From the NCBI GenBank assembly GCA_030631665.1, contig DAOVKU010000001.1:1-49841 (forward strand): a DNA stretch of 49,841 nt, in the 5' to 3' direction. A model generated the notes under the pieces. That model was given only the letters and a program-made list of their open reading frames with translations. It had not been told where the DNA came from and did not search any database. Positions within the stretch are counted from its first letter, which is position 1. Each line of letters opens with the position of its first letter. The stretch is from Candidatus Omnitrophota bacterium (GTDB lineage: Bacteria; Omnitrophota; Gorgyraeia; DAOVKU01). This document shows positions 18,431-44,914 of this stretch, one piece after another. Made by a program: the position numbers and the translations under genes.

Positions 18431-18476
18431 ACCCAAAGGAATAGATCCTCCTAGTTCCTCTGAGGGGGGGGTCTTA
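18431..18476 (+). repeat. hairpin repeat family 1, copy A (diverged)
   Basis: Sequence is acccaaaggaatagatcctcctagttcctctgagggggggtcttag. It aligns to the consensus TWATCCAC-RGGGATAGACCTTCCTAATTCC-N-GGGTCTWA. Confidence 0.6.
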
Positions 18477-18668
18477 GAAAAAATCCTGCCTCCGCGCACT
18501 TAAGACCTGCGCACCTCTCATGCAGTGGCCGGGCATCTTTCCAGAAAAGATAAAATATTTCTATGACCTTGATTGATTTTTTATTTTTTAAGAATTATGG
18601 TATAATTTACCACCTTGCGGGTACTTTATCAAAGGAATTTTTTTGCTTTGAAACTTATCTGACTTTCC

Positions 18669-19322
18669 CTATTGATTAATAGCGTTTTTCAACTGAACCA
18701 TCTCTGTTTGCTCCATTAATTTACGGTAAACAAAAGCATAAGCCACACCTGTTGTGGGGATAGTGGCAAACAAACCGATAAATAAACAGAATATTCCAAG
18801 TAAATTTATAATTCCAAGTATTAGGCTAAAACCAAGCAATTCCCATTTTGCGCCCTGTGTAATTGAAGCACTTGCCTTCAAGGCCTCTACGGGCCCCATT
18901 CCCTTATCAATTATAAAATAAGGGTAAAACTGAAATTTTATATTCCATATTATGCCCGGAACAATAAATAAAATAAACCCTCCTAAAACAATCAGCATAT
19001 AAAGAATTGAACTAAACAGGTATTTAAAAAACAGGCGATGACAGGAAAAAAGTTCGACAAACCCGGGCTTTTTATTATCGCAAAACCCCAGAACAATCTT
19101 GATAAAGCCCATGCCTATTATTAATTGTAAAATCCCAAAAACAACATAAATAATAACGGCCGCTAGCGGCATTTTTTTCTCTACCATATCACTGATAATA
19201 TCCGGCAAAAAATTAGCTAAAATTATGGTTATCAAAATGCCGATAAAAAGACCGAGATTATCCTTCATGGTCTTCCAGCCAAAAAGTATGGCTTGTCCAT
19301 CCGAAAAAGTTTTTATTGCCAT
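18669..19322 (-). CDS. integral membrane protein, unknown function (DUF975-like topology, unverified)
   Basis: 217 aa with 4-5 predicted TM helices. SD AAGGAG lies 8 nt upstream. I recognise no catalytic motif. Confidence 0.6.
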   Translation of the reverse strand: MAIKTFSDGQAILFGWKTMKDNLGLFIGILITIILANFLPDIISDMVEKKMPLAAVIIYVVFGILQLIIGMGFIKIVLGFCDNKKPGFVELFSCHRLFFKYLFSSILYMLIVLGGFILFIVPGIIWNIKFQFYPYFIIDKGMGPVEALKASASITQGAKWELLGFSLILGIINLLGIFCLFIGLFATIPTTGVAYAFVYRKLMEQTEMVQLKNAINQ

Positions 19323-19369
19323 ATTATTACTCCTTATTTTTTTGCAATTTATTTGCTTTTAAACTTTCG

Positions 19370-19398
19370 ATAATATAAGTCTAATCACCTGATATCAA
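19370..19398 (-). promoter_or_regulatory. sigma70-like promoter for the 217-aa membrane protein gene
   Basis: Minus strand reads TTGATA (complement of 19393-19398), a 17-nt spacer, then TATTAT (complement of 19370-19375). The -35 box abuts the GGGGACACAATAC inverted repeat. Confidence 0.45.
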
Positions 19399-19575
19399 TA
19401 GGGGGACACAATACCTATTTCTTTTTCTTCCTGCGCCCGGTTCTCTTCTTCTTAAGATTTATCTTATTAAATTAGTATTGTGTCCCCTGATTTTGTCCCT
19501 GATTTAATTTGATTTAATTAGTATTGTGTCCCCTGATTTACCGATTTACTAATTAGTATTGTGTCCCCTGATTTA
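19397..19575 (+). repeat. GGGGACACAATAC repeat family 4: segment S2 plus three inverted copies (MITE-like array)
   Basis: S2 (19397-19470) is aatagggggacacaatacctatttctttttcttcctgcgcccggttctcttcttcttaagatttatcttatt. It is followed by attagtattgtgtcccctgattt at 19471-19493, 19517-19539 and 19552-19574, plus a partial copy at 19494-19506. Confidence 0.8.
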
Positions 19576-20769
19576 AAATCTTCGTTTAAAAAAGATTAAT
19601 GGTAAGGATGATAGACAAATACTAAATAATAAAAAAGTAGCTGGCTCTGGAATAACCATCAACGGGTCACCTACATTAACTTCCTGCCAGGAAAGCCAGG
19701 GAGTAGCCATATAATAAGATTCAAGCATCTCATATCCAGCGAAGTATCTCGGAAATAGTATTTGTGGGCGGGCGCAAGCTTCTAAGTAGGGTTCATAGAC
19801 ATGCCCCTGTGCACCACTTGCGCCTGAATGAATAAGATCAGCTATCAAAGATTGACCATAAGGAGTGCATGCATTAAATGAGCGGGCACTACTGCTAACA
19901 TAGGTTGTGGTCAAAGCACCATTTACCCAGCTACCCGGAGTAAAAGAATCGTAATAAGGCGGTGAAGGGCTGTTGCTATCATTGCTTCCCCAGGAACAAT
20001 AGCCTAAAATATCAGATTGGTTATTTACAAAAGTTACTGTTTCATCATGATGAGTATTGGCACCTTGATTTGTCAAGATTTCATCAGCTTCATCCATCCA
20101 ATTATTGCCTTTTTCATAGTCCCCGGTTTTGGTAAGATCTTCATCGAGAACGAAAATACCGGAAGCGGAAGGATTTTGAGCTCGGTCAATAAGCGCCTTA
20201 ACATCGTCAGGTATTCCATCACAGTTAGAATCAGTTTCATAGCCAGTCAAGCTATCAACTAAATACAGTTCTGAGCCTGTTTGGTCTCTGAAATCCCTAA
20301 AAGACTTATTCTGTTCATAGTAAGGGTTACTAATAAAACCACCAATATTATATGAATAATTTAATAAAGTTAATTCTGAATTTACTGAAGAACGGTCAAA
20401 AGTATCAGGATTTTCAATATAATCGTTGGAGGTATCTTGTTCTTCAATACGCAGGGGAACGCCTTTAGTGGTAACTATATAATAGATACTATTCGACAAA
20501 CCATGATTTTCAAGATAGGATTTAATAGGATCTTTGATATGAGTATGGTAATAATCTCTGGTGATAGTTTCAGTTGTTAGAGAATTGATGTGGCAGATAT
20601 TAAAATCTGGAATTCCTCTTACAGATTGATAATAGTTGCCGATACTAATAGAATATGGACTATTATCATTAACTACCAAAAGCACTTCATTGCTTAAGAT
20701 CGCTTGGGCGTCTTTGATAAATAAAAAAATGGACAGTACTGATAAAAAAATAAGGCTTTTTTTAGTCAT
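19573..20769 (-). CDS. secreted protein with C-terminal PEP-CTERM sorting signal
   Basis: 398 aa. Has an N-terminal signal peptide (IFLFIKDAQA). The C-terminus VIPEPATFLLFSICLSSLPLIFFKRRF is PEP plus a TM helix plus a basic cluster, the exosortase recognition architecture. Confidence 0.75.
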   Translation of the reverse strand: MTKKSLIFLSVLSIFLFIKDAQAILSNEVLLVVNDNSPYSISIGNYYQSVRGIPDFNICHINSLTTETITRDYYHTHIKDPIKSYLENHGLSNSIYYIVTTKGVPLRIEEQDTSNDYIENPDTFDRSSVNSELTLLNYSYNIGGFISNPYYEQNKSFRDFRDQTGSELYLVDSLTGYETDSNCDGIPDDVKALIDRAQNPSASGIFVLDEDLTKTGDYEKGNNWMDEADEILTNQGANTHHDETVTFVNNQSDILGYCSWGSNDSNSPSPPYYDSFTPGSWVNGALTTTYVSSSARSFNACTPYGQSLIADLIHSGASGAQGHVYEPYLEACARPQILFPRYFAGYEMLESYYMATPWLSWQEVNVGDPLMVIPEPATFLLFSICLSSLPLIFFKRRF

Positions 20770-20783
20770 AGTTCTACAATTAA

Positions 20784-21503
20784 TTACCTGCGTAGCATCG
20801 GCACAAAACGAACCGGAATAACATTCTTAATTCTTATTTGCCCATCAATCTTCTCGATTAATTTCAATTCCTGATAATATTCGCCTACCGGAATAACGAG
20901 CTTTGCCCCTTCCTTCAGTTGTTCCAATAGAGGTTGAGGAACTTCTGTCGGTGCGCAGGTAACTATAATGGCATCATAAGGAGCATATTCCTCCCATCCC
21001 AGAAAACCATCGCCGCATTTTACGCTGATATTAGTATAACCCAATTCTTTAAGCAAGTCTCGCGCATCGCTCGTCAGAGATTCCAAAATTTCAATGGTAT
21101 AAACATGGCTGCAAATTTCCGCTAAAATAGCGGCTTGATAACCGCTTCCTGTGCCAATTTCTAAAATTTTTTCATGGCCATCAAGCTCAAGCAGCTGCGT
21201 CATTAAAGCCACAATATATGGCTGGGAAATAGTTTGCCCGCAACCAATAGGAAGAGGCCTGTCGGTATAAGCTAAAACTCTTAATTGAGGAGGGAGGAAT
21301 TTATGACGTTCGACCTTGCGCATAGCCCTCAACACTCTTTTATCTTTTATGCCCCGGGCTATTAATTGGTTCTCAACCATATCTGCGCGGGCTCTGATGT
21401 ACCCTGCTTCTTTTTGGTTTTCTGCCGCTGTCTTTGAAGCAAGGAAAAGCTGAGTGGTGAGCATTAAACCTGATATCAAAACTCTTAACAAATTCTTTAT
21501 CAT
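20784..21503 (-). CDS. pcm: protein-L-isoaspartate O-methyltransferase, with N-terminal signal/anchor
   Basis: 239 aa. Has the ISQPYIVA motif and SAM motif LEIGTGSGYQAA. The N-terminal hydrophobic leader suggests periplasmic or anchored localisation. Confidence 0.88.
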   Translation of the reverse strand: MIKNLLRVLISGLMLTTQLFLASKTAAENQKEAGYIRARADMVENQLIARGIKDKRVLRAMRKVERHKFLPPQLRVLAYTDRPLPIGCGQTISQPYIVALMTQLLELDGHEKILEIGTGSGYQAAILAEICSHVYTIEILESLTSDARDLLKELGYTNISVKCGDGFLGWEEYAPYDAIIVTCAPTEVPQPLLEQLKEGAKLVIPVGEYYQELKLIEKIDGQIRIKNVIPVRFVPMLRR

Positions 21504-21508
21504 ATTTT

Positions 21509-21575
21509 AATCCAAAAGGATACCTCTGAGGGCGCAAGTAGACCTTCCTAATTCCTTTAAAGGAGGGGTCTTAAG
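21509..21575 (+). repeat. hairpin repeat family 1, copy B (long form), abutting the pcm start
   Basis: Sequence is aatccaaaaggatacctctgagggcgcaagtagaccttcctaattcctttaaaggaggggtcttaag. It has a ~20-nt insert (cctctgagggcgcaagt) between GGATA and GACC. It begins 6 nt from the pcm ATG. Confidence 0.75.
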
Positions 21576-21643
21576 GAAGGGCCTAATTGGTTTAATTCAA
21601 AGCGCACATTAAGAATTTAACTATAGTTTTTTGTAGAAACCAA

Positions 21644-22609: not shown

Positions 22610-22738
22610 CTTATTCCCCCTTTTCTTTAATTGATTAGAAACGTGTAAAATGAGTTTTTTCGCATGAGATAAACCGGCCTTAGATAAAGCAACGAATACA
22701 TCTGGCCGCCTCTGGTAAAAAATCACAAACTTTTAGGA

Positions 22739-23515: not shown

Positions 23516-23518
23516 TTT

Positions 23519-24577
23519 TCACCACCTTTTTCCAACACCAATAAAAACAGCGGATTCTCGCTTTTTCTTAAAAAGGTTTAAGAATGCTTCGCCACTGCCT
23601 TTTAATATTTTACGCGATAATTTTAAATTCACACCAATGTCTTTGTTGTCTATATCGTTTTTAAGTTTAAATGATATGGAATCTCTTTTTGTCAATCTGG
23701 CCTCTGCGCCAAAGCTCATTGAATAAACTTTCCTACCTCTATATTTTACCTCAAATGTCAAGCCCTTGTTCCTCTTAATTTTCCAAGCGCCAAAAAGAAT
23801 AATGGTCTTTTTAATAGGTTTTACCTTTTTAGACAATCCAAGGCCTATGGTATATTTTATATATTTGTCTTTAAATATACCAAAACTGCTTCTGAAATTA
23901 AAGACAGAATTGGTATTTTTATCCACAGGGATAGACCTTCCTAATTCCCTTGAAGGAGGGGTCTTATCCAATACATATGAAATCCTGGCTTTTTCCTCTA
24001 TGTCCCAATGTCCCTTAAAAATAAGGGTGTGGATTTTTTTTAATTTTTTAATAAGCTGAGCTTTTTCATACCGGTATATAATCTGCTGCTTCTTATCTAC
24101 ATCCCATTGCCCGCTAAAAATCAAGATATCATATCTGGAACGTTCTCTTTTCGCTTTAAAAGTAAGCCGGTTAAGCTTATCAGCCTGCCAGGCGCCTGCG
24201 AGTTTAAGAATATACGTTGACTTCTCACTTGTCCCGGTCTTGGTGGTAAGAGAAAATAAAAGAGAATTTTTATTTACATCTATTATATTGCCCTTTAATG
24301 CCAACTTATCACTAGTTACCCGCTTCTTCCATTTATCGAGACTAAATATTAAATCGTGATTTTTAGAAAGAGACCATTTGCCTTTAAATTTAACCTGGCG
24401 AGGAATGTTTTTGTCTTTTTGGGCAGGAGCTTTTATGTGATAAATTAAGGAATTGTTTTTGCCGATTTTAAACTTTCCGTCATAAACTTTTCTAAAACGC
24501 CTGAGGCCTGTTTTTTTTCCTGTCCTTCCGGAAATTAGTCTGTTGTGGGGATCTACTTCGTATTTAATTTTTGCCAT
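23519..24577 (-). CDS. lysine-rich beta-hairpin repeat protein, unknown function
   Basis: 352 aa, very basic, no signal peptide. It has about 9 repeats of the pattern h-x-h-x-G-x-W-x-h-x(3)-N-x-L-x-F (for example VKFKGKWSLSKNHDLIFSL, LIFSGQWDVDKKQQIIYRY). Its stop lies 3 nt before the channel gene start. It contains an in-frame copy of the hairpin repeat at 23921-23969. Confidence 0.6.
   Translation of the reverse strand: MAKIKYEVDPHNRLISGRTGKKTGLRRFRKVYDGKFKIGKNNSLIYHIKAPAQKDKNIPRQVKFKGKWSLSKNHDLIFSLDKWKKRVTSDKLALKGNIIDVNKNSLLFSLTTKTGTSEKSTYILKLAGAWQADKLNRLTFKAKRERSRYDILIFSGQWDVDKKQQIIYRYEKAQLIKKLKKIHTLIFKGHWDIEEKARISYVLDKTPPSRELGRSIPVDKNTNSVFNFRSSFGIFKDKYIKYTIGLGLSKKVKPIKKTIILFGAWKIKRNKGLTFEVKYRGRKVYSMSFGAEARLTKRDSISFKLKNDIDNKDIGVNLKLSRKILKGSGEAFLNLFKKKRESAVFIGVGKRW
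23921..23969 (+). repeat. hairpin repeat family 1, copy C, inside the 352-aa CDS
   Basis: Sequence is atccacagggatagaccttcctaattcccttgaaggaggggtcttatcc. On the minus strand it is translated in frame as LDKTPPSRELGRSIPVD. Confidence 0.85.
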
Positions 24578-26326: not shown

Positions 26327-26357
26327 GATTAGTAGAAAAAGATTGTCTTGATATTTA

Positions 26358-27146: not shown

Positions 27147-28445
27147 TCACAGTTCAATCTCACGCCATGGGGTCCAATCCAGAGAAACTTTACTGAGATA
27201 GGTCCGACTGCTCATTAGAATTTTTTCTGGATTTCCTAAAACTTCAAGTGGTACATGAAACACGAGGTGTTTTGCCTGCCGCTTAATTTTTATAATCTTA
27301 TTGGGCAATCTGCGATTTTGGTCATAAATTCTATGCTCAATTGCCCCGAACCGAATATGGAGTTTAGGCATTTTGGCAAAAGGACAAAGGTTGCTGTATC
27401 CAAAAGCATAAATAGAAGCGCCCACTGTTTTTCCCAATGGCCGAGATAATTCAATAGAAATCACAAGACAATTATTTTCAAGGCTGACATAATTTTTTTC
27501 AAAACCGACAAATAAGGCACGCTCCCCATTGGTTAACTGCCTGGGGACAGGAATGATGGATGTGTCACGATCCGGGAATAAAGGTACAGAAGCAATATTT
27601 TGTTCTAAATTGATAGCCGGAAAATGGCCAAATAATTCATTAGTGCGTATAAAGGAAAGTAAATATTTGGCACTGTATTCATACTGTGACTTATACATTT
27701 CAAGAGCATTCTGTTTACGTGTTATATCTTCGGAGCTTAAACTATAATCCTGCCACGAGATTACATTCTTAAACAGTGCCGGTGGCTCCAATGGTTCATC
27801 CGGATGCAATCCCTTAGGGAAAGGCCAGTGTTTGCAATGAACCGGATAAGGATAAAGCTGGGGATTCATTTCTTTTTCTAAATCCCAGAGTGCGATGCGC
27901 GTAAAAAGATAGAGTGCGCGATGGTCAGGATTATGGTCTCCCGCATGTGAAAGAAAAACTTTGGTGGGTTTAAATTGTTGCAGTATGCTTTTTAAATCCC
28001 GCAGTATCTCCTCTCCTTTATATGGCGCCCCCGGGCGAAGAGCGCTGGCATAAGGAACCGCATTTACCCTGGTAAGCATGCTCATAGCCGGCGACGTATC
28101 ATTCCAGTGAAGACACCAAATAGCCAAAGTCTTGAAATCAGGATAGCCCAAAAATACCAAATCCTCCGCTGAAACTCCTAATTCTTCAGTAGCCCTATAG
28201 GCCTCGTCGTGGCGAACCATCCCCATGCTTCTAGCCGCCGCAGGCTCCAGCACAGGATGCTTTCGATAAATCAAAAACGACCATTGGTTATTATCGCCGT
28301 AGCTAAAATAAACAATCCGCAAAGGAATTCTCATCGCAACGGCCTTTTGGATAATTCCGCCACAGCCTAAAACTTCATCATCTGGGTGAGGCGCCAAAAT
28401 TAAAATGCGGTCATTGGAATTAAGTAATACGCTGGTGCTCGTCAT
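27147..28445 (-). CDS. PIG-L/LmbE-family N-acetylglucosaminyl deacetylase with ~200-aa C-terminal beta-rich extension
   Basis: 432 aa. Has the N-terminal ILAPHPDDEVLGCGG motif and a later HxDH (GDHNPDHRA). I recognise no family for the C-terminal half. Confidence 0.75.
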   Translation of the reverse strand: MTSTSVLLNSNDRILILAPHPDDEVLGCGGIIQKAVAMRIPLRIVYFSYGDNNQWSFLIYRKHPVLEPAAARSMGMVRHDEAYRATEELGVSAEDLVFLGYPDFKTLAIWCLHWNDTSPAMSMLTRVNAVPYASALRPGAPYKGEEILRDLKSILQQFKPTKVFLSHAGDHNPDHRALYLFTRIALWDLEKEMNPQLYPYPVHCKHWPFPKGLHPDEPLEPPALFKNVISWQDYSLSSEDITRKQNALEMYKSQYEYSAKYLLSFIRTNELFGHFPAINLEQNIASVPLFPDRDTSIIPVPRQLTNGERALFVGFEKNYVSLENNCLVISIELSRPLGKTVGASIYAFGYSNLCPFAKMPKLHIRFGAIEHRIYDQNRRLPNKIIKIKRQAKHLVFHVPLEVLGNPEKILMSSRTYLSKVSLDWTPWREIEL

Positions 28446-29148
28446 AACTTCCTACCAAAAATATAACATGTAAAATCTCTGTATAAACGGAAGCGCAAAA
28501 AAGTACTTTTTATCTTAAACAACAACTTAAAACCTGCCTTCGTAAAAAATGTCTTTGCCTCTTCAGAAATTGTAACACAATGCACCCCGCACACCTTTTC
28601 TTCTTTTAAAAAATTCAAATATTTCTCTATCAATCGACTTCCAACGCTAAAACCTCTAAAATTTTTATCTATATTAATATGAAATATAGCTGGATATTCT
28701 CTGGATAAACTGGGAGTAAAAAATTCACCTTTCAAAAAACTGCATATGCCATGCAGCAAAAACATCCAGGTGTTTTTTTAAGAAAAACTCCTTTCCTAAT
28801 AGCTTTAATAAATAATAAGGGGGCGATTTTCAATTTAAAAACTCTATCCATCGCCCTTTCATTTTTTGCCCCCACAACATAACCAACTACTTTCTCAGAG
28901 CAAACAGCAACAAAACAAGAACCAAGTTCGTAATCGGTGAAATACAATGTAAGGGCATCGGCTAAAATCTCATCGTCATCAAAAAAATCAGTCCTGGGTT
29001 TTCCTAAAAAAGCCGTATCACAGCTTATTTTCCTTAACTCTTCTCTATCTCTGCTCTCAAATTTTCTTATAACAACATTGTTTTTGTCCACCGCTTTTCT
29101 TTTTATTAATTTCCCACTATCTCTTTTAACTTTAATACTTTCATCCAC
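28442..29148 (-). pseudogene. GNAT-family N-acetyltransferase split by a frameshift in an A7 run
   Basis: ORF 28732-29148 encodes the N-terminal half (IRKFESRDREEL..., VVGYVVG). ORF 28442-28765 encodes the acetyl-CoA-binding half (YPAIFHINIDKNFRGFSVGSRLIE). One extra A in the run at 28773-28779 would fuse them as ...FLKKNTWMFLLHG.... Confidence 0.65.
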
Positions 29149-29190
29149 GGGGATAGACCTTCCTAATTCCTTTAAAGGAAGGGTCTTATA
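29143..29190 (+). repeat. hairpin repeat family 1, copy D, filling the HD-GNAT intergenic gap
   Basis: Sequence is atccacggggatagaccttcctaattcctttaaaggaagggtcttata. It spans from the HD gene stop (29191) into the GNAT GTG start (29146-29148). Confidence 0.85.
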
Positions 29191-32610: not shown

Positions 32611-32704
32611 AAAAGCAGTAATTGAATTTATACTAAACTTCTAAAAAATTCCTAAAACTACACTAAAAACGCTTAAAGAAATCTTCAAATTAAGAGAGGT
32701 GCTT

Positions 32705-32785
32705 ATCCACGGGGATAGACCTAACTCGAAGAGTAGTCTTCGACTAAGGGCACAGGCAGACCTTTATAATTCCTTTGAAGGAGGG
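32705..32785 (+). repeat. hairpin repeat family 1, copy E (long form) in the mscS 5' UTR
   Basis: Sequence is atccacggggatagacct-[aactcgaagagtagtcttcgactaagggcacaggc]-agacctttataattcctttgaaggaggg. The 3' arm provides the mscS SD. The insert carries the tcgaagaNtagtcttcga hairpin also seen at 5879-5900. Confidence 0.8.
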
Positions 32786-32792
32786 ATTTAAT

Positions 32793-33626: not shown

Positions 33627-33674
33627 CCGAAAACCGGCAGGCTCTTTGTATCTACATCTAAAATTGCTCTTCTT

Positions 33675-33763
33675 ATCCACAGGGATAGACCTTACTAATT
33701 CCCCTTAAGGAAGGGTCTAATCCACAGGGATAGACCTTACTAATTCCCCGAATGAAGGGTCTA
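33675..33763 (+). repeat. hairpin repeat family 1, copies F1 and F2 (head-to-tail dimer, 45-nt period)
   Basis: Sequence is atccacagggatagaccttactaattccccttaaggaagggtcta followed directly by atccacagggatagaccttactaattccccgaatgaagggtcta. It lies between convergent mscS and the SH3-like gene. The last cta is that gene's stop codon. Confidence 0.85.
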
Positions 33764-34465
33764 ATTTAGCAACGCTTCCAGTTGTTTAATTTCCCCCTCT
33801 GCTTTTTTCCACAAAAGCTGGCAATATTTTAACAAGGAAAGGACATCGTGATTAACAATATTATCGAAATATGTTGCTTGCGGGATTAAAGACTTATACT
33901 TATCTACATAGGTTTGCAGGTCGGGATAATTAGAAGTGTACAAGAGTTCAATGGTCCCATCGGTTATGCAAGGCTTGGCTTCCGGCTCGAGCTCTCTAAT
34001 ACACCAAACATTACCGGCTGTTATAAAACAAGTTGTAATACTCACTATCTTTTTCTGAATATCAGAAGTATCCATTAAGTTTGCCACAGTTAAATCGCTG
34101 CTTGTTTTTAAATTCGAAAGCATATTTTCATATTCTTCATAGCTAACTCCGGACTCAACTGTTGATATCAACGATTTTGCCAACTGGATAAAATCCGCCA
34201 ATTCCGCAGGTAACTCTTTTTGAGAAACAGCTATGTCCACAGCATTTTTACGCATCCAGCCGACTAGAGACACTTTAACCCAATCTCCCCGCTTTTCCAA
34301 AATCTCAAAACTTGTACCTTTATATGCCAGGGCAAGCACTTTCTCGCCAGCCACTGTATTCAGAATGGGCTTTTTTTTGTTCGCTATGCCAACATCAGCC
34401 AAAGCCTGATCAACAAATAGCGCTAAAAAAGCAATAGCCATAATTAAAATACTTATTCTCTTCAT
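33761..34465 (-). CDS. secreted SH3-like domain protein, unknown function
   Basis: 234 aa. Has a signal peptide (AFLALFVDQALA) and an SH3b-like stretch (GTSFEILEKRGDWVKVSLVGWM). It is the last gene of the Bat-type cluster. SD is AGAGGTGA. Confidence 0.55.
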   Translation of the reverse strand: MKRISILIMAIAFLALFVDQALADVGIANKKKPILNTVAGEKVLALAYKGTSFEILEKRGDWVKVSLVGWMRKNAVDIAVSQKELPAELADFIQLAKSLISTVESGVSYEEYENMLSNLKTSSDLTVANLMDTSDIQKKIVSITTCFITAGNVWCIRELEPEAKPCITDGTIELLYTSNYPDLQTYVDKYKSLIPQATYFDNIVNHDVLSLLKYCQLLWKKAEGEIKQLEALLN

Positions 34466-35290: not shown

Positions 35291-37146
35291 AATCTGTGCC
35301 TCTCCAGAAAACGTAAAATTTCTTCCATGTTTTTGAAGGTTACTTCCATCTGGCTCCTGCCAAATTCTGAAGGCGCATATCTTGCCATATCGCAATCTTT
35401 AAAAATATCTTTTAACTTACTAAGGGTATCTTCATCTATCCCTCTGGGTTTAAGGATTTTATCAACGACATCTATGGTTATCCCTCCTGCAGGTAGATGA
35501 AGCTTATCTCCTAAATACTCCTGTAGGGTTTTAAATATGGCATCATAAAATTCCAGCCTTTTCTTTTTATTTAGAAACTGCTGCGCTTTCTTAATGCCCT
35601 CTCTTGCCTTTTTGGAAGCATAGAGGCGGCGGGCATATCGAGTATCCGTTTTGAGCCTTTCACTTCTTTTATATATAGTCAATACAGAAATAAGAAATAA
35701 AAAGGGGAGTAGTTGAAGTAATAAAAATCCTCTGTTTTTATAAAGATAAAGACCTTTTCTTTTTATTTTTCCCGGCAATTCTTTAATATAAACAATGTCC
35801 TTACCGAGTATTTCATCCGCCGGAAAACTTATGCGCTTCTCAAGACTTTCTACTATTTTGGCTTTTTCTTCCTTTTTCCGTTTTGTCACTTTTATTGGTA
35901 GTGGTCCTCGCGATATAGTCTGATATGTTCCTCTCATAGGATCGAAAAAAGTAAAATGAGTTCTGGGGATTTCTTTTACTTCTTCGGTTTTTGGTATCAA
36001 GATTTGTTCAAAGGTTTTTTTATTACCTTTAAATGTTACCTGTGGTTCGTATGTCTTAAAATTTTCATGCAAATCAGGCGCTGGGCACCTCATAACATCA
36101 AAGTTGCCTCTACCGGTTACAATCATTTTAAGTGTCATAGGATCTCCGACTTCTACGGTCTTGGGATCTATCAAAAGATTAAAATTGAAATTTCCAACCG
36201 CCCCGCTAAAATTTTCCGGCCGGCCTTCTTTTGGCAAAGGAAGTACCGTCACAAAAACTTCTTTAGATTTTAATTCCAGCGGATAAGTTTCGTATTTTCC
36301 GAAGAAATCATCAAAGGCATCTCCCCCAAAAAAATCATCAAAAATACTCGATTTTCTAGTGGCCCTTTGCTTCCTGATAATAAGATTACACCCCAGCTCC
36401 GACGGGCCCAAAGTAAGTTCGCCGGGCTTTATAGCAAAAATATGCGTTCTAAACTCCACCACATCGTATGGAATGCCGTTTAAACCTTGCGTATATTGCC
36501 TTGGTTTTTCAAATTCACCTACAGAAAATCCTTCGTGTGCAAATTTAGGATATTGAATCTCTTTCAATGAAAGCCTGTTTACATACAATTTTATAGTTAG
36601 CGGGACAACTTCATTTAAATATAATTTTTCCTTTTCAATTTCCACAACCACAAAAATTCTGTTTCCTAAATTCATCTTCATTTTGCCAGGTGCCACTTGT
36701 GGCTGCTTTTCTTCCGCAAGGGGCCCCCGCACCACTTCAACCGTTATTTTTCCTGAGGTATATGTTTTCCCTTTATAACTGACTGAAAAAGGTCCGAGAG
36801 GCAAAATTCCCGGCTTAAGCGGGGTAATCATATAATTATAAGTTATTGACCTTGTGGTTTTGCCGTTTACAATCGACATCATCGCTGAAGGACCGACATA
36901 ACGAACTCTAACATTCTTCATCTGAGGCAACTCCGGCTTGGGGGCATCCTGCGTATTATGAAAAATAAGGCTGAGCTTAATGCTTTCGCCAAAAGAGATT
37001 TTATTTTTATCGACCGCAGTCTCAAATATTATATCCGAAGCTGTACAAACCGAATTAAAAATCCAAAATTCAAATATCAAAATGATAATGAAAAAAATGA
37101 AATTTTTAAAAATTTTATTTTTTAATTTTTGCACTTTTATTACCAA
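35287..37146 (-). CDS. batD: BatD-like oxygen-tolerance protein
   Basis: 619 aa. It has a signal peptide, a large beta-rich periplasmic region, a TM helix near residue 480 and a C-terminal helical cytoplasmic domain. Its position follows BatC. The start is uncertain: TTG at 37146 or GTG at 37134. Confidence 0.7.
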   Translation of the reverse strand: MVIKVQKLKNKIFKNFIFFIIILIFEFWIFNSVCTASDIIFETAVDKNKISFGESIKLSLIFHNTQDAPKPELPQMKNVRVRYVGPSAMMSIVNGKTTRSITYNYMITPLKPGILPLGPFSVSYKGKTYTSGKITVEVVRGPLAEEKQPQVAPGKMKMNLGNRIFVVVEIEKEKLYLNEVVPLTIKLYVNRLSLKEIQYPKFAHEGFSVGEFEKPRQYTQGLNGIPYDVVEFRTHIFAIKPGELTLGPSELGCNLIIRKQRATRKSSIFDDFFGGDAFDDFFGKYETYPLELKSKEVFVTVLPLPKEGRPENFSGAVGNFNFNLLIDPKTVEVGDPMTLKMIVTGRGNFDVMRCPAPDLHENFKTYEPQVTFKGNKKTFEQILIPKTEEVKEIPRTHFTFFDPMRGTYQTISRGPLPIKVTKRKKEEKAKIVESLEKRISFPADEILGKDIVYIKELPGKIKRKGLYLYKNRGFLLLQLLPFLFLISVLTIYKRSERLKTDTRYARRLYASKKAREGIKKAQQFLNKKKRLEFYDAIFKTLQEYLGDKLHLPAGGITIDVVDKILKPRGIDEDTLSKLKDIFKDCDMARYAPSEFGRSQMEVTFKNMEEILRFLERHRL

Positions 37147-38027
37147 TCCCTTAATACCTTTGGATAATGAGCTTTCCTTTTTTTGGCTTCGATGTCCCCT
37201 GCCTCTTCTTCCTGCTGATAACTTTCTAACAACATCCTTGCTTCTTCTTCAGACATCTCTCCCAATTCTGCCGGTATCTCTTCGGCCTCTCCTTCTCTCC
37301 CAGGCTCCTCTTCTTTGCCTTGCGGAACTTGCCCGGGAGAAGGTTGTGGTTTTTCCTTTTCCTTCTGTTCCTGTTCTTTTTGTTTTTGCTCTTTTTCTTC
37401 TTGCTTCTGCTTTTCTTTTTCTTTTGGGTCCTCTTGCTGTTCTTTTTTTTGTTTTTCCTCTTCCTGTTTTTGTTTCTCTTTATCCTGTTTCTCTGATTGC
37501 TGTTGTTGTTGCTCTTTTTGTTGTTGTTGCTGCTGTTGTTGCTTTTCCATAAGTTCTTTTATTTTCTTTTCTACAAATTCATAATTAAACTTTGCATCTT
37601 CATCCTTTTCATCTAAATCTACGGCTCTTTTATAATAATTAAGCGCCTCTTTATATAAATTAATAGCCTCGGACAAATCCGTATTTTCCTTGGCTGATCC
37701 TTGCCTAACCCTGGAACTGCCTATATTGTAATTTGCCCTTGCTTCCAATTGAGAATCTTTTGTAATCAAAGACTTTGTAAGCAAATCTACGGCCTTCTGG
37801 TAATCTCCTTTTTTATATAGGGTTGTTCCTACATTAAAATTTACTATGTTGGAATCAGGTGATTCGACTTGTGCTTCATTGTACTTCCGGATAGCCTCAT
37901 CGTATTTTTCATCTTTATACAACCGGTTGCCTTCTTTTACATCTTTGGCAATTGAAGCCGCCAAACTTAAAGGTATTTCATAAAATAAAGCTGCTACAAA
38001 AATTATTATACACAAAATTCTTCTCAT
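37140..38027 (-). CDS. batC: BatC-like TPR protein with long Q/E/K low-complexity tail
   Basis: 295 aa. Has a signal peptide and TPR repeats (GNRLYKDEKYDEAIRKYNEA...). These are followed by QQQQQQQQKEQQQQQSEKQDKEKQKQEEEKQKK.... Confidence 0.7.
   Translation of the reverse strand: MRRILCIIIFVAALFYEIPLSLAASIAKDVKEGNRLYKDEKYDEAIRKYNEAQVESPDSNIVNFNVGTTLYKKGDYQKAVDLLTKSLITKDSQLEARANYNIGSSRVRQGSAKENTDLSEAINLYKEALNYYKRAVDLDEKDEDAKFNYEFVEKKIKELMEKQQQQQQQQKEQQQQQSEKQDKEKQKQEEEKQKKEQQEDPKEKEKQKQEEKEQKQKEQEQKEKEKPQPSPGQVPQGKEEEPGREGEAEEIPAELGEMSEEEARMLLESYQQEEEAGDIEAKKRKAHYPKVLRDW
37330..37550 (-). repeat. low-complexity coding repeats (CAA/CAG/GAA/AAA-rich) within batC
   Basis: The plus strand reads as runs of ttgttgttgctg and ctttttcttttg units. 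These encode poly-Q and EKQK repeats and also create spurious antisense ORFs. Confidence 0.8.
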
Positions 38028-39031: not shown

Positions 39032-39067
39032 CCTACCAATCCCCCATTTAATTGCATCATAAGATTT

Positions 39068-41076: not shown

Positions 41077-41091
41077 AGTTTCAATTAACTT

Positions 41092-41970: not shown

Positions 41971-42050
41971 TGATTATTGGTTGCTCCAACCCCACGCCTT
42001 GCGGCAGCCATAGGGCAACTGTTAATTCCTGGACATCTATGGCAGGACTG

Positions 42051-43046
42051 TTATGGTACCTCTATTTCTTCAAATATCCTTTTAATAATATCATCCGATG
42101 TCTTTTCTTCGGCCTCTGCTTCATAGCTTACAATAATCCTGTGCCTTAGAATATCCGGGCCTATTAATTTGACATCCTGCGGTGTAACATAACCCCTGCC
42201 CTGAATAAAAGCATAGGCTTTTGAGGCTACGGTTAAATATATGCTGGCACGCGGCGATGCTCCATACTGAATAAGGCCTTTTAAGTCATCTAATTTATAA
42301 CTTTCCGGTTCTCTGGTAGCAAAAATAATATCTAAAATATAGTTTTCTATTTTCTCATCCATATAAACTTCATCGATGGTACTTCTTGCTTTTATAATGG
42401 TTTGAGGCTCAACAACAGCATTTACTTTAATCTCCTTATTGGTAAAGCTCATTCTTTTAAGAATTTTGCGCTCTTCTTCCATGTTGGGATAGGTTATATT
42501 TATCTTGAGCATAAACCTGTCAATCTGGGCTTCCGGCAGGGGATAAGTTCCTTCCTGCTCTATGGGATTCTGTGTGGCCATAACCAAAAATGGATCATCC
42601 AGTTTAAAGGTATTCTCACCAATGGTAACCTGCCTTTCCTGCATGGATTCTAAGAGCGCGCTTTGAACTTTAGCCGGGGCCCGGTTTATTTCATCGGCCA
42701 GGATAATGTTGGCAAAAATGGGACCTTTTTTGGTGGTGAAATCCCCATCTTTCGGATTATAAACCAAGGTACCGATTAAATCTGCCGGCAATAAGTCCGG
42801 GGTAAATTGGATTCTTTGAAATTTAGTCTTTATGGTCTGCGCTAATACCCATATCGACATAGTCTTGGCAAGTCCGGGAACTCCCTCAACCAATAAATGT
42901 CCGTTAGCCAAAAGACCAATCAAAAGCCTGTCTATAAGATATTTCTGGCCAACTATAACTTTTTCAATTTCATTCACCAGAAGCGGCACAAATTGGCTTT
43001 CTTTTTTTACTTTTTCATTAATAGCTGTTATTCCTTTTTCAACCAT
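42051..43046 (-). CDS. moxR: MoxR-family AAA+ ATPase
   Basis: 331 aa. Has Walker A GVPGLAKT, Walker B ILADEINRA and the AAA_3 layout. SD is AGGAGG. Confidence 0.9.
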   Translation of the reverse strand: MVEKGITAINEKVKKESQFVPLLVNEIEKVIVGQKYLIDRLLIGLLANGHLLVEGVPGLAKTMSIWVLAQTIKTKFQRIQFTPDLLPADLIGTLVYNPKDGDFTTKKGPIFANIILADEINRAPAKVQSALLESMQERQVTIGENTFKLDDPFLVMATQNPIEQEGTYPLPEAQIDRFMLKINITYPNMEEERKILKRMSFTNKEIKVNAVVEPQTIIKARSTIDEVYMDEKIENYILDIIFATREPESYKLDDLKGLIQYGASPRASIYLTVASKAYAFIQGRGYVTPQDVKLIGPDILRHRIIVSYEAEAEEKTSDDIIKRIFEEIEVP

Positions 43047-43071
43047 ATTTCTGTCCTCCTTTAATGACGAT

Positions 43072-43160
43072 ATGATTTACGAAACAAAGTGCCCTGAGAA
43101 ATTCGAAGAATTTCCAGGATTAAGTCCCCGAAATCTTATAGATTTCAGGGGAAACGTAAA
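43072..43160 (-). repeat. ~88-nt multi-hairpin repeat family 3, copy Y (inverted)
   Basis: Its reverse complement tttacgtttcccctgaaatctataagatttcggggacttaatcctggaaattcttcgaatttctcagggcactttgtttcgtaaatc matches copy X with about 10 mismatches. It lies in the moxR 5' region. Confidence 0.8.
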
Positions 43161-43213
43161 TTATATGTCGGAATTAAATCCGTCTTAGGCGGATATACTT
43201 CTTTCATTTTCTT

Positions 43214-43624
43214 TCACTGTTTTTCAGTATTATCTTGTCGCGGAAATCCAAACTCAACACCCTGTAATATGGGAGGCATTTTATCTGGCGTCTCTTCTTC
43301 AACAGCGCCCGACTGTTGCTCTTCAAGTCCTTCATAAGAACTCTCGCCTTTGGTGGTTTTCCCGCCGGCCAGTTCATCTGTATATCCTATAGGCATCCCC
43401 AAGCGTCTTTTCCCTGTTATCGGACCTTCGCTCTTGACGGTGGAACACTCCATCTTGGTTATCGGACCTTCGCTCTTGACGGAAGGACCTTTTGTCTTAG
43501 TAGTTTGATCTTCGCTTTTGACGGGAGAAACTTCTGATGTAGAGGGCAACTCTTCTGCATAATTTAAACCACAAAACATAATCACTATAAAAATTACAGC
43601 CAATGCTATAAAATTCTTTATCAT
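43214..43624 (-). CDS. secreted small repeat protein, unknown function
   Basis: 136 aa. Has a signal peptide (MFCGLNYAEE) and 14-aa tandem repeats VKSEGPIT.... These are encoded by 42-nt DNA repeats at 43416-43440 and 43458-43482. Confidence 0.5.
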   Translation of the reverse strand: MIKNFIALAVIFIVIMFCGLNYAEELPSTSEVSPVKSEDQTTKTKGPSVKSEGPITKMECSTVKSEGPITGKRRLGMPIGYTDELAGGKTTKGESSYEGLEEQQSGAVEEETPDKMPPILQGVEFGFPRQDNTEKQ

Positions 43625-43911
43625 TTTCGCTTCCCCTTTTTTTTCTCGAATTCGGCATCTATAATATCTTCAAATTCAGCATCTACAATATCCTCAAACT
43701 TATCCATCTCCTGCTCAAACTCATCCATGACACCCTCAACATCAAATATATCTGCGCTCATATTTCCATGGTCCTCATTATCAATAACTTCGTCTTTATA
43801 TTTATGGCTATGCCTGCGCAAAAACTGCCCGAATGAAAAAACAGTCTTGAAGAATAAATAAAACAGCACATAAAAAACCAATAATGTAAATAAAGTATGT
43901 AATATTTTCAT
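43621..43911 (-). CDS. single-TM protein with highly acidic repetitive tail, unknown function
   Basis: 96 aa. Has an N-terminal TM helix, then a D/E-rich tail with duplicated DIVDAEFE/DIIDAEFE, and ends KKKGKRK. It shares a 4-nt overlap with the downstream ORF. Confidence 0.5.
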   Translation of the reverse strand: MKILHTLFTLLVFYVLFYLFFKTVFSFGQFLRRHSHKYKDEVIDNEDHGNMSADIFDVEGVMDEFEQEMDKFEDIVDAEFEDIIDAEFEKKKGKRK

Positions 43912-43960
43912 ATAATCTATTATATATTATAACAAAAATTTCCGTTTTGGAGAATTTTCC

Positions 43961-44776
43961 CTATTGTGCCATATCCTTTACGGAACGAATAACTAATGCA
44001 TAGCCGCCGACATTATAGCCCTTTATTTTAAGAGGAATCCTTTTTTTATCTGCGCTTAACCAGAACGTAAATTTCTCAGGAATGCTGGTAAAAACATAGG
44101 CAAGATGCTTTCCCAAACCGGTTCTAATAGTTTCTTTTCCCTTAAATATCATATCAAAATCAGCTGTAGGAAAAGTAATCTTAAACTCCTGATTTTCTGC
44201 CATAAGTGGTTTGGTGCGATAGTAATACGGCAGGAGTATGGCATTTTGAATAAGCGCATCTTTTTCTATGGTAATTCTTTTAGAAAAAGGGAGCCTTCCA
44301 CGTTTCTTTATTTTGACTTTAAATGCCTCCTGGTCATATTCCTCTGTTATTCTGGTACAAAAAGCACCCATGCGCCTGATACATCGAAGGACTTTAAAAG
44401 GAAGAAAAGTCTCTTTATCGGCATAAATATCTTCCGTATCTTCAAAACCGGGTAGTTTTGTAGAAAAAGTTATATAATAAACATCTTTGCCATCTATTTT
44501 TCTCTCGCCATGAAATATCAAAACAGATTCGCCAATTTTCACTTTTTTATAATAAATATCGTATATCAGCTCTTCGCCTTTGTGAAACGGCAAAGATATA
44601 CTATTCCTTCCTTCGCCTGTCGGACAAAAAACGCTTTGAACTTTTATTTCAGAAACCGCTTCTATCTCTTCTGCGCCCTCGCTCATCGAAGGATTAATAC
44701 AAAATAAAGATAAAATCGATAATAGAATTAAAAATTTTTTATCTTTTAAAAATATTATTCCAAGTCTTTGGTCCAT
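43961..44776 (-). CDS. secreted hypothetical protein (DUF3108-like by pattern, unverified)
   Basis: 271 aa. Has a signal peptide and a beta-rich body. The segment GEELIYDIYYKKVKIGESVLIFHG...DGKDVYYITF resembles the DUF3108 N-terminal pattern as I recall it. Confidence 0.45.
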   Translation of the reverse strand: MDQRLGIIFLKDKKFLILLSILSLFCINPSMSEGAEEIEAVSEIKVQSVFCPTGEGRNSISLPFHKGEELIYDIYYKKVKIGESVLIFHGERKIDGKDVYYITFSTKLPGFEDTEDIYADKETFLPFKVLRCIRRMGAFCTRITEEYDQEAFKVKIKKRGRLPFSKRITIEKDALIQNAILLPYYYRTKPLMAENQEFKITFPTADFDMIFKGKETIRTGLGKHLAYVFTSIPEKFTFWLSADKKRIPLKIKGYNVGGYALVIRSVKDMAQ

Positions 44777-44834
44777 ATATCTACTCTTATTATAGTTAAA
44801 TAAAAACGTTTAAGAATTTTTAAACTTTACTCTA

Positions 44835-44914
44835 ATCCATAGGGATACCCCTGAGGGCACAAGCACCCCAAGGGGGCACAGGTAGACCTTGCTATTCCTT
44901 AAAGCAAGGGTCTA
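44835..44914 (+). repeat. hairpin repeat family 1, copy G (long form), overlapping the kdsB 3' end
   Basis: Sequence is atccatagggatacccctgagggcacaagcaccccaagggggcacaggtagaccttgctattccttaaagcaagggtcta. Its 3' arm encodes the kdsB C-terminus LDPCFKE plus the stop. Confidence 0.8.

What the first reader, a model, noticed from the sequence alone, without database searches (positions are those of the whole stretch)
18431..44914. Interspersed 45-48-nt hairpin element (TWATCCAC-RGGGATAGACCTTCCTAATTCC..GGAAGGGTCTWA): 9 copies, all in one chromosomal orientation
I found copies at 18431, 21509, 23921, 29143, 32705, 33675, 33720 and 44835, plus a fragment (ttcacagggata) near 18379.

Structure:
- The core folds as AGACCTTCC / GGAAGG(G)TCT around a TAATTCCTTTAAA loop.
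- In copies B and D the loop contains the perfect palindrome TTCCTTTAAAGGAA.
- GGATA can also pair with TATCC on either flank.
- Three copies are long forms with a 20-35-nt insert between GGGATA and GACC that shares GAGGGCRCAAG/GGGCACAGG.

All nine copies have the same polarity on the plus strand, although they sit in very different contexts: 5' leader, inside a CDS, a gene 3' end and a convergent intergenic gap. Both arms contain SD-like AGGAAGG/GGAGGG paired to CCTTCC, so the element could sequester or donate ribosome binding sites.

This resembles REP/BIME or Rickettsia RPE-type elements, but I do not recognise the sequence as a described family.
Basis: seen in the sequence. Interest (0 to 1): 0.75.

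Follow-up and report, generated by a model that had tools for sequence, protein, structure and literature searches.

The report
Tiny mobile hairpin repeat in Omnitrophota
The repeats are real copies of a roughly 45-base mobile hairpin element that has spread through genomes of the uncultivated phylum Omnitrophota, slipping in frame into protein genes and even re-entering the same codon junction of one gene in four separate lineages; it most resembles the REP elements of other bacteria, but it is built differently and the enzyme that moves it has not been found.

Summary
The window holds eight copies plus one fragment, all on the + strand (core pattern: 5 hits vs 0.2 expected).

The element is not private to this genome. 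The same sequence (consensus TTATCCACAGGGATAGACCCTCCTAATTCCTTTAAAGGAGGGGTC|TTA) occurs in about 10 Omnitrophota-type MAGs and 15 metagenome contigs, and in no viral contig. It has no Rfam match.

It is mobile. Three kinds of filled/empty comparison show exact insertions of 45 nt (63 nt for the long form) at a TTA:
- inside the window's 352-aa ORF: 13/13 homologues lack the 15 residues;
- inside a tnpB gene: 1/120 relatives carry it;
- at one codon junction of a syntenic chromosomal gene, in four separate clades.

Copies also form head-to-tail arrays and nest in each other's loops. Both helices covary.

The invariant bases are an RTAG tag at the hairpin foot, a bulged G, and a CT that pairs with the tag's AG. 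This is the anatomy of REP/RAYT substrates.

Best reading: a REP-like, non-autonomous single-strand hairpin element moved in trans by an HUH/Y1 enzyme. That mechanism is inferred; no such gene was found.

The uniform orientation in the window is not a family rule. Any role in ribosome-binding-site control is incidental at best.

The parts
18378..18390 (+). Solo 5' module fragment ATTCACAGGGATA with no hairpin. It lies in the 670-nt gene-free stretch 17997-18668.
   Evidence: Fuzzy search, 1 mismatch to ATCCACAGGGATA; sequence read.
18429..18476 (+). Degenerate short copy: a 45-nt unit 18429-18473 plus the right-hand TTA. The stem AGATCCTCC/GGGGGGGGTCT is kept through two T.G wobbles.
   Evidence: nhmmer E=5e-10; sequence.
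21508..21586 (+). Long form. The unit 21508-21570 is 63 nt (45 + the 18-nt module CCTCTGAGGGCGCAAGTA), with a GTAG tag and the right-hand TTA at 21571-21573. An extra partial 3' arm GGAAGGGCCTAA follows at 21575-21586. The copy starts 5 nt beyond the pcm start codon (ATG at 21503, minus strand), so it lies in that gene's leader, on the antisense strand.
   Evidence: E=4e-13.
23919..23966 (+). Short copy: unit 23919-23963 plus TTA. It is inserted in frame, antisense, in ORF 23519-24577, where it adds 15 residues (PPSRELGRSIPVDKN). It is flanked by the 7-nt direct repeat TTATCCA.
   Evidence: E=5e-19. All 13 aligned homologues lack exactly these 15 residues.
23519..24577 (-). Host gene of the 23919 copy. 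It encodes a 352-aa protein of a conserved family with no Pfam domain, whose homologues are 331-339 aa.
29141..29188 (+). Short copy lying exactly between the stop of the HD-domain gene (29191) and the GNAT gene. The GNAT start, as called (GTG at 29148), and the GGAAGG upstream of it are both element sequence on the minus strand.
   Evidence: gene call 12235-12942 in L001; E=4.5e-18.
32703..32792 (+). Composite long copy with a decayed 3' arm (GGAGGGATTTAAT). The arm's GGAGGG sits 7 nt before the ATG of the + strand MscS gene.
   Evidence: two partial hits, E=4e-4 and 4e-6.
33673..33764 (+). Head-to-tail pair: units 33673-33717 (45 nt) and 33718-33761 (44 nt), plus TAA. It lies between convergent genes. 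The TAG stop of ORF 33761-34465 (minus strand) is made of the last element base plus the TA after it.
   Evidence: D2; E=2e-17 and 1e-13.
44833..44915 (+). Long form with two extra modules (80-nt unit), a GTAG tag and the compensated stem TTGC/GCAA. It encodes the last 7 codons and the stop (LDPCFKE*) of kdsB (44892-45629, minus strand). Other assemblies break within 10 nt of this copy.
   Evidence: L019 has an N-gap there and L020's contig ends at 44925.

Best explanation

Anatomy of the basic unit (modal length 45 nt), 5' to 3':
- TWA;
- a mini-hairpin, TCC-ACAG-GGA;
- an RTAG tag at the hairpin foot (ATAG, or GTAG in subfamilies and in all long forms);
- a 9-bp stem with one bulged G and a 13-nt loop;
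- an invariant CT that pairs with the AG of the tag.

Shown:
- New copies appear at a TTA/TAA and add exactly one unit. The trinucleotide is present once before insertion and on both sides after it.
- Insertion prefers sites whose downstream bases mimic the element's own 5' end (TWAT up to TTATCCACA). It also prefers the loop TTA of resident copies, and a few hotspots.
- This produces head-to-tail arrays, nested copies, and repeated hits at one codon junction.
- The consensus unit is 15 codons long, with one open frame per orientation. Insertions in the right phase therefore survive inside genes as 15-aa (or 21-aa) inserts. Others survive at gene ends, where they may supply stops, SD-like GGAGG or starts.

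Inferred:
- Movement goes through a folded single strand that is recognised and cut at GGGGTC|TTA by a trans-acting HUH/Y1 (RAYT- or IS200-type) enzyme.
- The tag region GGGATAG acts as the guide. Its complement, CTATCCC, nearly equals the junction C|T(W)ATCC.
For: Real and widespread:
-.

Mobility (filled versus empty sites):
- The window's ORF carries 15 residues that all 13 aligned homologues lack.
- In tnpB, NIL[SRGIDPPNSFKGGVL]AAGH occurs in 1/120 relatives. The DNA pair reads AACATC-TTA-GCC (empty) against AACATC-TTA[...GGGGTC-TTA]GCC (filled).
- In the hotspot gene, the module is in 4/120 clusters. These fall in four clades whose module-free sisters are 91-97% identical. The gene lies in conserved synteny, and the inserts are different element variants.
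- L025 has one unit where L031 and L032 have two, at the same site.
- Nested copies sit in loops.

Structure under constraint:
- 92.5% of cells paired, 6/13 pairs with double changes, 0/500 shuffles reaching the observed values.

REP-like anatomy:
- Tag ATAG 30 / GTAG 7 of 38; CT in 38/38; bulged G in 35/38.
- This matches the requirements of the E. coli TnpA-REP: a GTAG guide, C|T cleavage next to the hairpin, and a bulge (PMC8266576). Stem and loop fall within the ranges of GTAG REPs, which include PVC hosts and intragenic copies (PMC3733652).

Target preference:
- Right-flank position 4 is T in 19/26 copies (p=1e-5). At least 7 nt of self-mimicry occurs in 4/26 (p=6e-6).

Other:
- No terminal inverted repeats (read directly from the sequence).
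- The element breaks assemblies.
Against: - No RAYT or other Y1 gene lies next to any copy in the 280 kb held, apart from one IS605 into which the element had inserted. Whole carrier genomes could not be searched.
- The commonest tag is ATAG, not GTAG, and E. coli TnpA-REP tolerates no GTAG change (PMC8266576).
- REPs are mostly head-to-head or tail-to-tail dimers, and head-to-tail pairs are rare (PMC3733652). Here arrays are head-to-tail.
- Wobble pairs do not favour one strand (13 vs 10), so nothing shows which strand, if any, folds.
- The hotspot TTA|AAAGG does not resemble the supposed guide complement.
- A 3-bp TTA duplication would equally fit a DDE transposase.
Confidence: 0.6

Rival explanations
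1. It is a classical MITE moved by a DDE transposase of the IS5/PIF-Harbinger type, which duplicates a 3-bp TWA target.
For: TTA is present once in empty sites and on both sides of filled sites. TTA/TAA brackets nearly every copy.
Against: - There are no terminal inverted repeats: the ends read TCCACAGG... and ...GGAGGGGTC. The element is asymmetric, with a conserved 5' module.
- The left and right trinucleotides differ in 5 of 11 copies of the TTCC/GGAA subfamily, and in L039 (CTA/TTA).
- Insertion prefers sites that mimic the element's own end, and hairpin loops.
- No DDE gene lies near any copy.
Confidence: 0.13
2. It is primarily a host cis-regulatory module: an anti-SD/SD hairpin that couples or gates translation, or stabilises mRNA between cistrons. 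On this view its dispersal is secondary.
For: - CCTCC pairs with GGAGG in either orientation.
- Several copies sit exactly at gene junctions and supply a stop, an SD or a start: 29141, 32703, 33718, 44833, and L006 with GGAAGGGTCTTATG.
- REPs are known to affect mRNA stability (PMC3733652).
Against: - Copies occur in both orientations relative to genes.
- They occur inside coding sequences, in an insertion sequence, in tandem, and nested in one another.
- Close relatives lack them at the same sites.
- Conservation is concentrated in the tag, CT and stem, not in SD-to-start spacing.
Confidence: 0.1
3. It spreads without a dedicated enzyme, by hairpin-promoted template switching or microhomology-mediated repair during replication.
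For: Junction microhomology varies from 3 to 10 nt with the element's own 5' end. Copies form head-to-tail arrays. No transposase was found.
Against: - Adjacent units in arrays belong to different subfamilies (L031, L032, L017), which is not what slippage gives.
- The boundaries are exact in independent events.
- The tag, CT and bulge are invariant, which suggests recognition by a protein.
Confidence: 0.1
4. It is a derivative or working part of IS200/IS605 elements (an end-derived PATE, or part of the TnpB guide RNA region).
For: In L010 and L011, two inverted copies bracket tnpA-tnpB. One lies in the 3' end of tnpB, where the guide RNA is encoded.
Against: - Only 1 of 120 related TnpB clusters has the module; relatives at 86% identity read NIL|AAGH without it.
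- The IS's own end hairpins (CCCCTG..ATGGGG) are unrelated to the element.
- No tnpA or tnpB lies near any other copy.
Confidence: 0.04

Closest known systems
GTAG-type REP elements with their RAYT (TnpA-REP) enzymes, i.e. REPtrons and REPINs (PMC3733652, PMC8266576, PMC3116915)
   Same: - A short imperfect palindrome, with stem and loop inside the REP range.
- A conserved tetranucleotide tag at the 5' foot: RTAG here, and GTAG in subfamilies and all long forms.
- An invariant CT beside the hairpin, complementary to the tag's AG. This is where TnpA-REP cuts.
- A conserved stem bulge and compensatory stem evolution.
- Many copies, mostly between genes and some inside genes.
- A host in the PVC group, where GTAG REPs are already known.
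   Different: - The commonest tag is ATAG.
- There is an extra conserved 13-nt 5' module forming its own mini-hairpin.
- Units are phased at 45 nt and arranged head-to-tail, not in head-to-head or tail-to-tail doublets.
- The sequence is nearly identical across many species.
- Insertion at TTA/TAA is demonstrable, with hotspots.
- No RAYT has been found so far.
Rickettsia palindromic elements, RPE (reviewed in PMC10969869; CGTC-tagged according to PMC3733652)
   Same: Palindromic repeats that insert in frame into unrelated housekeeping genes and are tolerated as extra peptide segments. The mobilising enzyme is unknown.
   Different: - RPEs are about 100-150 bp, carry a CGTC tag and are restricted to Rickettsia.
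- This element is 45 nt (15 residues), carries an RTAG tag, forms arrays and nests.
- It shows recurrent same-site insertion.
IS200/IS605 'peel and paste' single-strand transposition (IS608, ISDra2; as summarised in PMC8266576 and PMC6006769)
   Same: - A hairpin with an extrahelical base.
- A short guide 5' of the hairpin that pairs with the cleavage or target site.
- Insertion next to a short specific sequence without inverted ends.
- Targeting of single-stranded DNA would fit insertion into hairpin loops.
   Different: - Those elements have two hairpins (left and right ends) and carry tnpA. This one has a single hairpin and no gene.
- The one IS605 seen here has unrelated end hairpins and is merely a target of the element.
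Bacterial MITEs with TA or TWA target duplication (Correia elements, RUP, Tourist-like; PMC10969869)
   Same: Small, non-autonomous and AT-rich in target choice. They can donate promoters, RBSs or terminators, and can fuse in frame with genes.
   Different: MITEs have terminal inverted repeats matching a parent IS and are usually 100 bp or longer. Neither holds here.

Membership tests
GTAG REP / RAYT system | Short imperfect palindrome (stem 5-13 bp, loop 2-20 nt) in many dispersed copies | tested here: met
   9-bp stem plus one bulge and a 13-nt loop. The main helix is 95.9% paired with 5 covarying pairs. There are 8 copies in 27 kb here and copies in about 10 MAGs.
GTAG REP / RAYT system | Conserved GTAG tetranucleotide at the 5' foot of the hairpin | tested here: inconclusive
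   TAG is invariant or nearly so. The first base is A in 30/38 copies and G in 7/38, and G in all long forms. Degenerate tags are known in REP families, but changes at the first position are not among those listed in PMC3733652.
GTAG REP / RAYT system | CT dinucleotide beside the hairpin, complementary to the tag's A3G4, cut by the enzyme | tested here: met
   CT is present in 38/38 copies and pairs with AG. The C|T position coincides with one of the four unit boundaries allowed by the filled/empty comparisons. Cleavage itself cannot be tested with these tools.
GTAG REP / RAYT system | A RAYT gene, usually single-copy, flanked by the repeats (REPtron) in the same genome | tested here: inconclusive
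   No Y1-like ORF was found in the 280 kb held, apart from an IS605 tnpA that is a target of insertion.
GTAG REP / RAYT system | Predominant head-to-head or tail-to-tail doublets (REPINs, BIMEs) | tested here: not met
   Arrays are head-to-tail (window 33673-33764; L017 with four units; L005, L009, L031, L032). The only inverted pair is inside the IS605 locus.
Rickettsia palindromic elements | In-frame insertion into protein genes, adding a peptide | tested here: met
   Three independent cases were verified against homologues.
Rickettsia palindromic elements | About 100-150 bp, CGTC tag, RPE consensus sequences | tested here: not met
   The unit is 45 nt with an RTAG tag. Sizes and tags for RPEs are taken from PMC10969869 and PMC3733652.
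MITE (DDE transposase-dependent) | Terminal inverted repeats matching a parent insertion sequence | tested here: not met
   The ends TCCACAGGGA... and ...GGAGGGGTC are not inverted repeats (consensus). No IS with such ends occurs in any locus.
MITE (DDE transposase-dependent) | Target-site duplication of fixed length | tested here: inconclusive
   TTA occurs once in empty sites and twice in filled sites. However, left and right triplets differ in several copies, and the repeats range from 3 to 10 nt.
IS200/IS605 end-derived elements (PATE) or TnpB guide-RNA region | Hairpins like those of a resident IS's left and right ends, or a constant link to tnpA/tnpB | tested here: not met
   The IS end hairpins CCCCTG..ATGGGG are unrelated to the element. 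The module occurs in 1/120 TnpB relatives.
Any Rfam RNA family | Match to a curated covariance model | tested here: not met
   Only tRNAs reach gathering score. Nothing overlaps any copy at E<=10.

The most novel reading that the evidence does not exclude
The element is the substrate of a so far unrecognised guide-directed single-strand DNA insertion system in Omnitrophota. It would use a longer guide than known HUH transposases (GGGATAG, 6-7 nt, plus the mini-hairpin). That would let it home to defined sequences and explain four independent hits at one codon junction. Its 15-codon open design would be an adaptation for living inside genes, not an accident. The enzyme could be an atypical RAYT or a different protein altogether.
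Probability: 0.15. Interest if true: 0.75.

Novelty: new variant of a known kind. Interest (0 to 1): 0.5.

Why it matters
- **Scope of REP-like elements.** It extends REP-like mobile hairpins to an uncultivated, largely ultra-small phylum. Unusually for this class, it comes with direct evidence of recent movement from natural filled/empty pairs. For classical REPs the way they spread is still debated.
- **A testable target rule.** The exact boundaries, invariant tag/CT/bulge and strong target mimicry give a concrete, testable substrate and target rule for whichever enzyme moves it. HUH enzymes with guide-selected targets are of practical interest.
- **In-frame inserts.** It is a second clear example, after Rickettsia RPEs, of selfish DNA that persists in frame in housekeeping proteins.
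- **Practical consequences.** The element breaks metagenome assemblies and may cause mis-joins. It also shifts predicted gene starts and ends, so annotators of Omnitrophota MAGs should mask it.

Tried and rejected
- **Peptide search.** I searched 5.8 billion proteins with the concatenated sense and antisense translations of the element. The word index returned 3 candidates and no hit (two searches were parameter errors). One capped search was wasted.
- **Which strand folds.** An early impression from the window copies was that T.G wobbles mark the + strand as the folding strand. On 38 copies the count is 13 vs 10 (p=0.68), so I dropped it.
- **IS605 as the parent or mobiliser.** This looked attractive when L010 and L011 showed two inverted copies around tnpA-tnpB. 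It was rejected after 119/120 TnpB relatives, and the DNA of L036, lacked the module.
- **PDB alignment of the TnpB.** This was meant to show the insertion, but the alignments stop exactly at NILSR and are uninformative.
- **'Orthologous copy conserved more than its flanks', as a sign of function.** It is explained instead by independent recent insertions.
- **Orientation rule relative to transcription or GC skew.** It does not hold across loci.
- **Strict 3-bp target duplication.** The left and right triplets are not always identical.
- **Other negatives.** The viral contig scan gave 0 hits. The literature search for the sequence gave only chance primer matches. A relaxed search for Y1-like ORFs in all held DNA found nothing credible.


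Full report
**Observation**

The core motif GGGATAGACCTTCC, allowing 2 mismatches, occurs 5 times in the window against 0.2 expected. These are 18429-18476 (degenerate), 21508-21586 (long), 23919-23966, 29141-29188, 32703-32792 (long, with a decayed 3' arm), a head-to-tail pair at 33673-33764, and 44833-44915 (long, with two extra modules). A solo 5' fragment lies at 18378-18390.

Almost all genes in the window are on the minus strand, and GC skew is uniformly negative. The copies are therefore antisense to nearly all local transcription. The window encodes housekeeping genes only, with no transposase.

**Distribution**

The window comes from an Omnitrophota-like population. It is 99.8% identical to ENA ERZ23498525 scaffold_180 but runs beyond that scaffold's end.

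I scanned one genome per GTDB species with a pattern that left the inner stem positions free. This found 17 loci in about 10 MAGs and SAGs. Most are labelled Omnitrophota, two 'Planctomycetia' and one 'Ratteibacteria'. The JGI metagenome scan gave 15 more contigs. The viral collection gave none.

Across these genomes the consensus is nearly constant: TTATCCACAGGGATAGACCCTCCTAATTCCTTTAAAGGAGGGGTC|TTA. Rfam has nothing at gathering score or at E<=10. The sequence does not appear in the searchable literature.

**Structure**

I aligned 38 distinct copies (A3) and tested the proposed structure.
- 92.5% of cells form standard pairs.
- 6 of 13 pairs show changes on both sides.
- No shuffle out of 500 reaches any observed measure, and slid controls reach 62% paired at most.
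- The main helix is 95.9% paired. Its compensated variants include C-G/T-A at position 6, AGTCC/GGACT, TTAC/GTAA (with TTAC/GTAG as a T.G form), TTCG/CGAA, and TTGC/GCAA in the window's 44833 copy.
- The 5' mini-hairpin TATCC/GGATA switches to ACCC/GGGT in five copies.

The invariant columns are TA(G) at the 5' foot of the hairpin, two stem Gs, the CT that pairs with that AG, and the A of the trailing TWA. The tag reads ATAG in 30 copies, GTAG in 7 and ATAT in 1. The extra stem base is G in 35 of 38.

Long forms carry an 18-nt module (CCCYNNNGGGCACAAGTA) between GGGATA and GACC. This puts GTAG next to the hairpin. The same module occurs in other genomes. Unit length is 45 nt in 23 of 38 copies; 44 and 46 nt also occur.

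**Mobility**

Three independent kinds of filled/empty comparison show that these are insertions.

1. *The window's 352-aa ORF (23519-24577).* It carries 15 residues that are absent from all 13 aligned full-length homologues. Deleting the 45 nt between the TTATCCA repeats restores the homologous reading.

2. *A tnpB gene in MAG BS750m-G14.* An IS605 element there has NIL[SRGIDPPNSFKGGVL]AAGH in TnpB. Of 120 related TnpB clusters only its own has the module. A relative's DNA reads AACATC-TTA-GCCGCG where the filled site reads AACATC-TTA-[TCCAGAGGG…GGGGTC-TTA]-GCCGCG.

3. *A hotspot in a chromosomal gene.* This gene lies in conserved synteny, next to the TPM_phosphatase and LemA genes.
   - It carries the module at one codon junction (NLIRL^KG) in 4 of 120 homologue clusters.
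   - On a tree built with the module masked, the four lie in four clades. Each has module-free sisters at 91-97% identity.
   - The inserted variants differ: CAGAGGG with GGAGG, CACAGGG with GGAAG, and a 63-nt long form that adds PLRAQV in frame.
   - This means at least four independent insertions at one TTA, or many precise losses.

Further evidence of activity:
- One site holds one unit in L025 and two units of different subfamilies in L031 and L032.
- Inner copies sit in the loop TTA of outer copies, in two unrelated outer subfamilies.
- A scaffold gap and a contig end fall within 10 nt of the 44833 copy in other assemblies of the same population.

**Target choice**

Every insertion is at TTA or TAA. 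Beyond that trinucleotide, the right flank copies the element's own 5' end more than chance allows.
- Position 4 is T in 19 of 26 independent copies (p=1e-5).
- Position 5 is C in 8 of those 19 (p=0.04).
- Four of 26 copies share 7-10 nt with it, TTATCCA(CAG) (p=6e-6).

This preference, together with the loop hotspot, accounts for head-to-tail arrays and nesting.

The left and right trinucleotides are not always the same. They differ in 5 of 11 copies of one subfamily, and L039 has CTA on the left and TTA on the right. A strict 3-bp duplication is therefore not proven.

**Coding compatibility**

The consensus is open in one frame per orientation: LSTGIDPPNSFKGGVL in sense and KTPPLKELGGSIPVD in antisense. 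The other four frames contain stops (read from the sequence; one search lists the ORFs that use these frames). This explains the in-frame survivors.

It also explains the copies that end a gene. The kdsB tail LDPCFKE* is element sequence, and so is part of the TAG stop of ORF 33761-34465. Other copies abut a start: the GNAT gene's called GTG at 29148, and the MscS gene's SD at 32785.

**Mechanism**

What is shown is duplicative, site-selective insertion of a structured unit that has no inverted ends and no gene. The enzymology is inferred.

The anatomy matches what REP-associated tyrosine transposases need:
- a tag at the hairpin foot whose A3G4 select a C|T cleavage site beside the hairpin;
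- a required stem bulge (PMC8266576).

GTAG REPs are already known in PVC bacteria and inside genes (PMC3733652), and Omnitrophota belongs to the PVC group. The C|T of the element (GGGGTC|TTA) is one of the four boundaries the filled/empty pairs allow. The complement of GGGATAG (CTATCCC) nearly equals the preferred junction C|T(W)ATCC. A guide-target pairing like that of IS608, or of the Marinomonas REPtron, would therefore explain the target bias.

Against full membership:
- the commonest tag is ATAG;
- arrays are head-to-tail, where REPs favour inverted doublets;
- there is an extra 5' module;
- no RAYT was found in the 280 kb I could read;
- wobble pairs give no strand preference.

**Orientation and regulation**

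Seven independent sites in one orientation has a two-sided p of about 0.016 (my arithmetic). In other genomes, about 10 loci have copies co-directional with the genes and 4 are antisense. The uniformity is therefore local, and one of the seven sites lies at a doubtful join.

SD-like arms are a by-product of the CCTCC/GGAGG stem. Individual copies may have been co-opted, but the distribution argues against a primary regulatory role.

**Verdict**

This is a real and previously undescribed family of miniature mobile hairpin elements in Omnitrophota.
- In anatomy it is closest to GTAG REPs.
- In its in-frame lifestyle it is closest to RPEs.
- It is distinct in its organisation.
- The mobilising enzyme is unknown.

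Noticed in passing
window 28773-28780: A homopolymer difference from the ENA scaffold: T7 in the window, T8 in L001. It splits the GNAT acetyltransferase gene into two ORFs (28732-29148 and 28442-28765). The ENA record has one intact 235-aa gene. This is either an assembly error or strain variation. Elsewhere there are 36 mismatches in 20.8 kb, none of them in element copies.
   Followed up: yes
window 44916-44925: Scaffold_2252 of the same metagenome (L019) matches the window from 49841 down to 44925. It then has an N-gap and continues kdsA-kpsF-kdsC-lptC-lptB. A Logan contig (L020) also ends at 44925. The window's join of kdsB to the DUF3108 gene across the element may be a mis-assembly or a strain rearrangement.
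   Followed up: partly
window 1983-2021, 11222-11239, 16010-16031, 43170-43202 (also 8201-8233): A second family of intergenic repeats, made of two GC-rich hairpins (GACCCCGAAGCGTCGGGG and AATCCGCCTAAGGCG). They lie just upstream of minus-strand gene starts or next to the tRNA cluster, and are unrelated to the 45-nt element.
   Followed up: partly
window 4467-4506, 6901-6919, 9992-10010, 16555-16635: A third repeat family of short CAGAA(G/A)TCAGAAAACAGAA-type units, found on both strands in intergenic gaps of the first 17 kb. That stretch of the window has no copy of the 45-nt element.
   Followed up: no
window 19469-19574: Three direct copies of (T/A)AATTAGTATTGTGTCCCCTGATTT, spaced 46 and 35 nt apart, in the gap between the PEP-CTERM protein gene and the DUF975-like gene. 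They look like repeated operator or promoter-region sites.
   Followed up: no
window 37343-37576: A long pyrimidine-rich, low-complexity stretch on the + strand. It encodes a K/E/Q-rich segment of the TPR protein (ORF 37140-38027) in the Bat/VWA/MoxR operon.
   Followed up: no
L010 2850-2950 and L011 1400-1490: At the left end of the IS605 copies, the element copy is part of an 84-nt insertion absent from the related IS in L036. That insertion is flanked by a 7-9-nt direct repeat, (AT)AAGGCGC. Its other half, a hairpin CCCCTGG(A/C)TTTA(T/G)CCATGGGG, resembles the IS right-end hairpin and shares TTATCCATGGGGATA with the element's 5' module. I could not explain this.
   Followed up: partly
L036 707-3709: Two tnpB-only IS605-family copies (408 and 402 aa) sit in tandem inside a type II secretion / pseudopilin gene cluster of another metagenome contig.
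   Followed up: no
window 17997-18668: A 670-nt stretch between trxB and the DUF975-like gene with no convincing ORF. It holds the most decayed element copy and the solo 5' fragment. Rfam finds nothing in the part I scanned, 18300-18668.
   Followed up: partly
window 23895-23975; L011 2645-2720; L037 1990-2030: Several insertion sites lie in or beside small local hairpins: ATTGG-loop-CCAAT in the window ORF, with the TTA in its loop; CCGCG..CGCGG just after the tnpB site; and TAATC..GATTA ending at the hotspot TTA. This may hint that single-stranded or extruded DNA is the target. No statistics were done.
   Followed up: no
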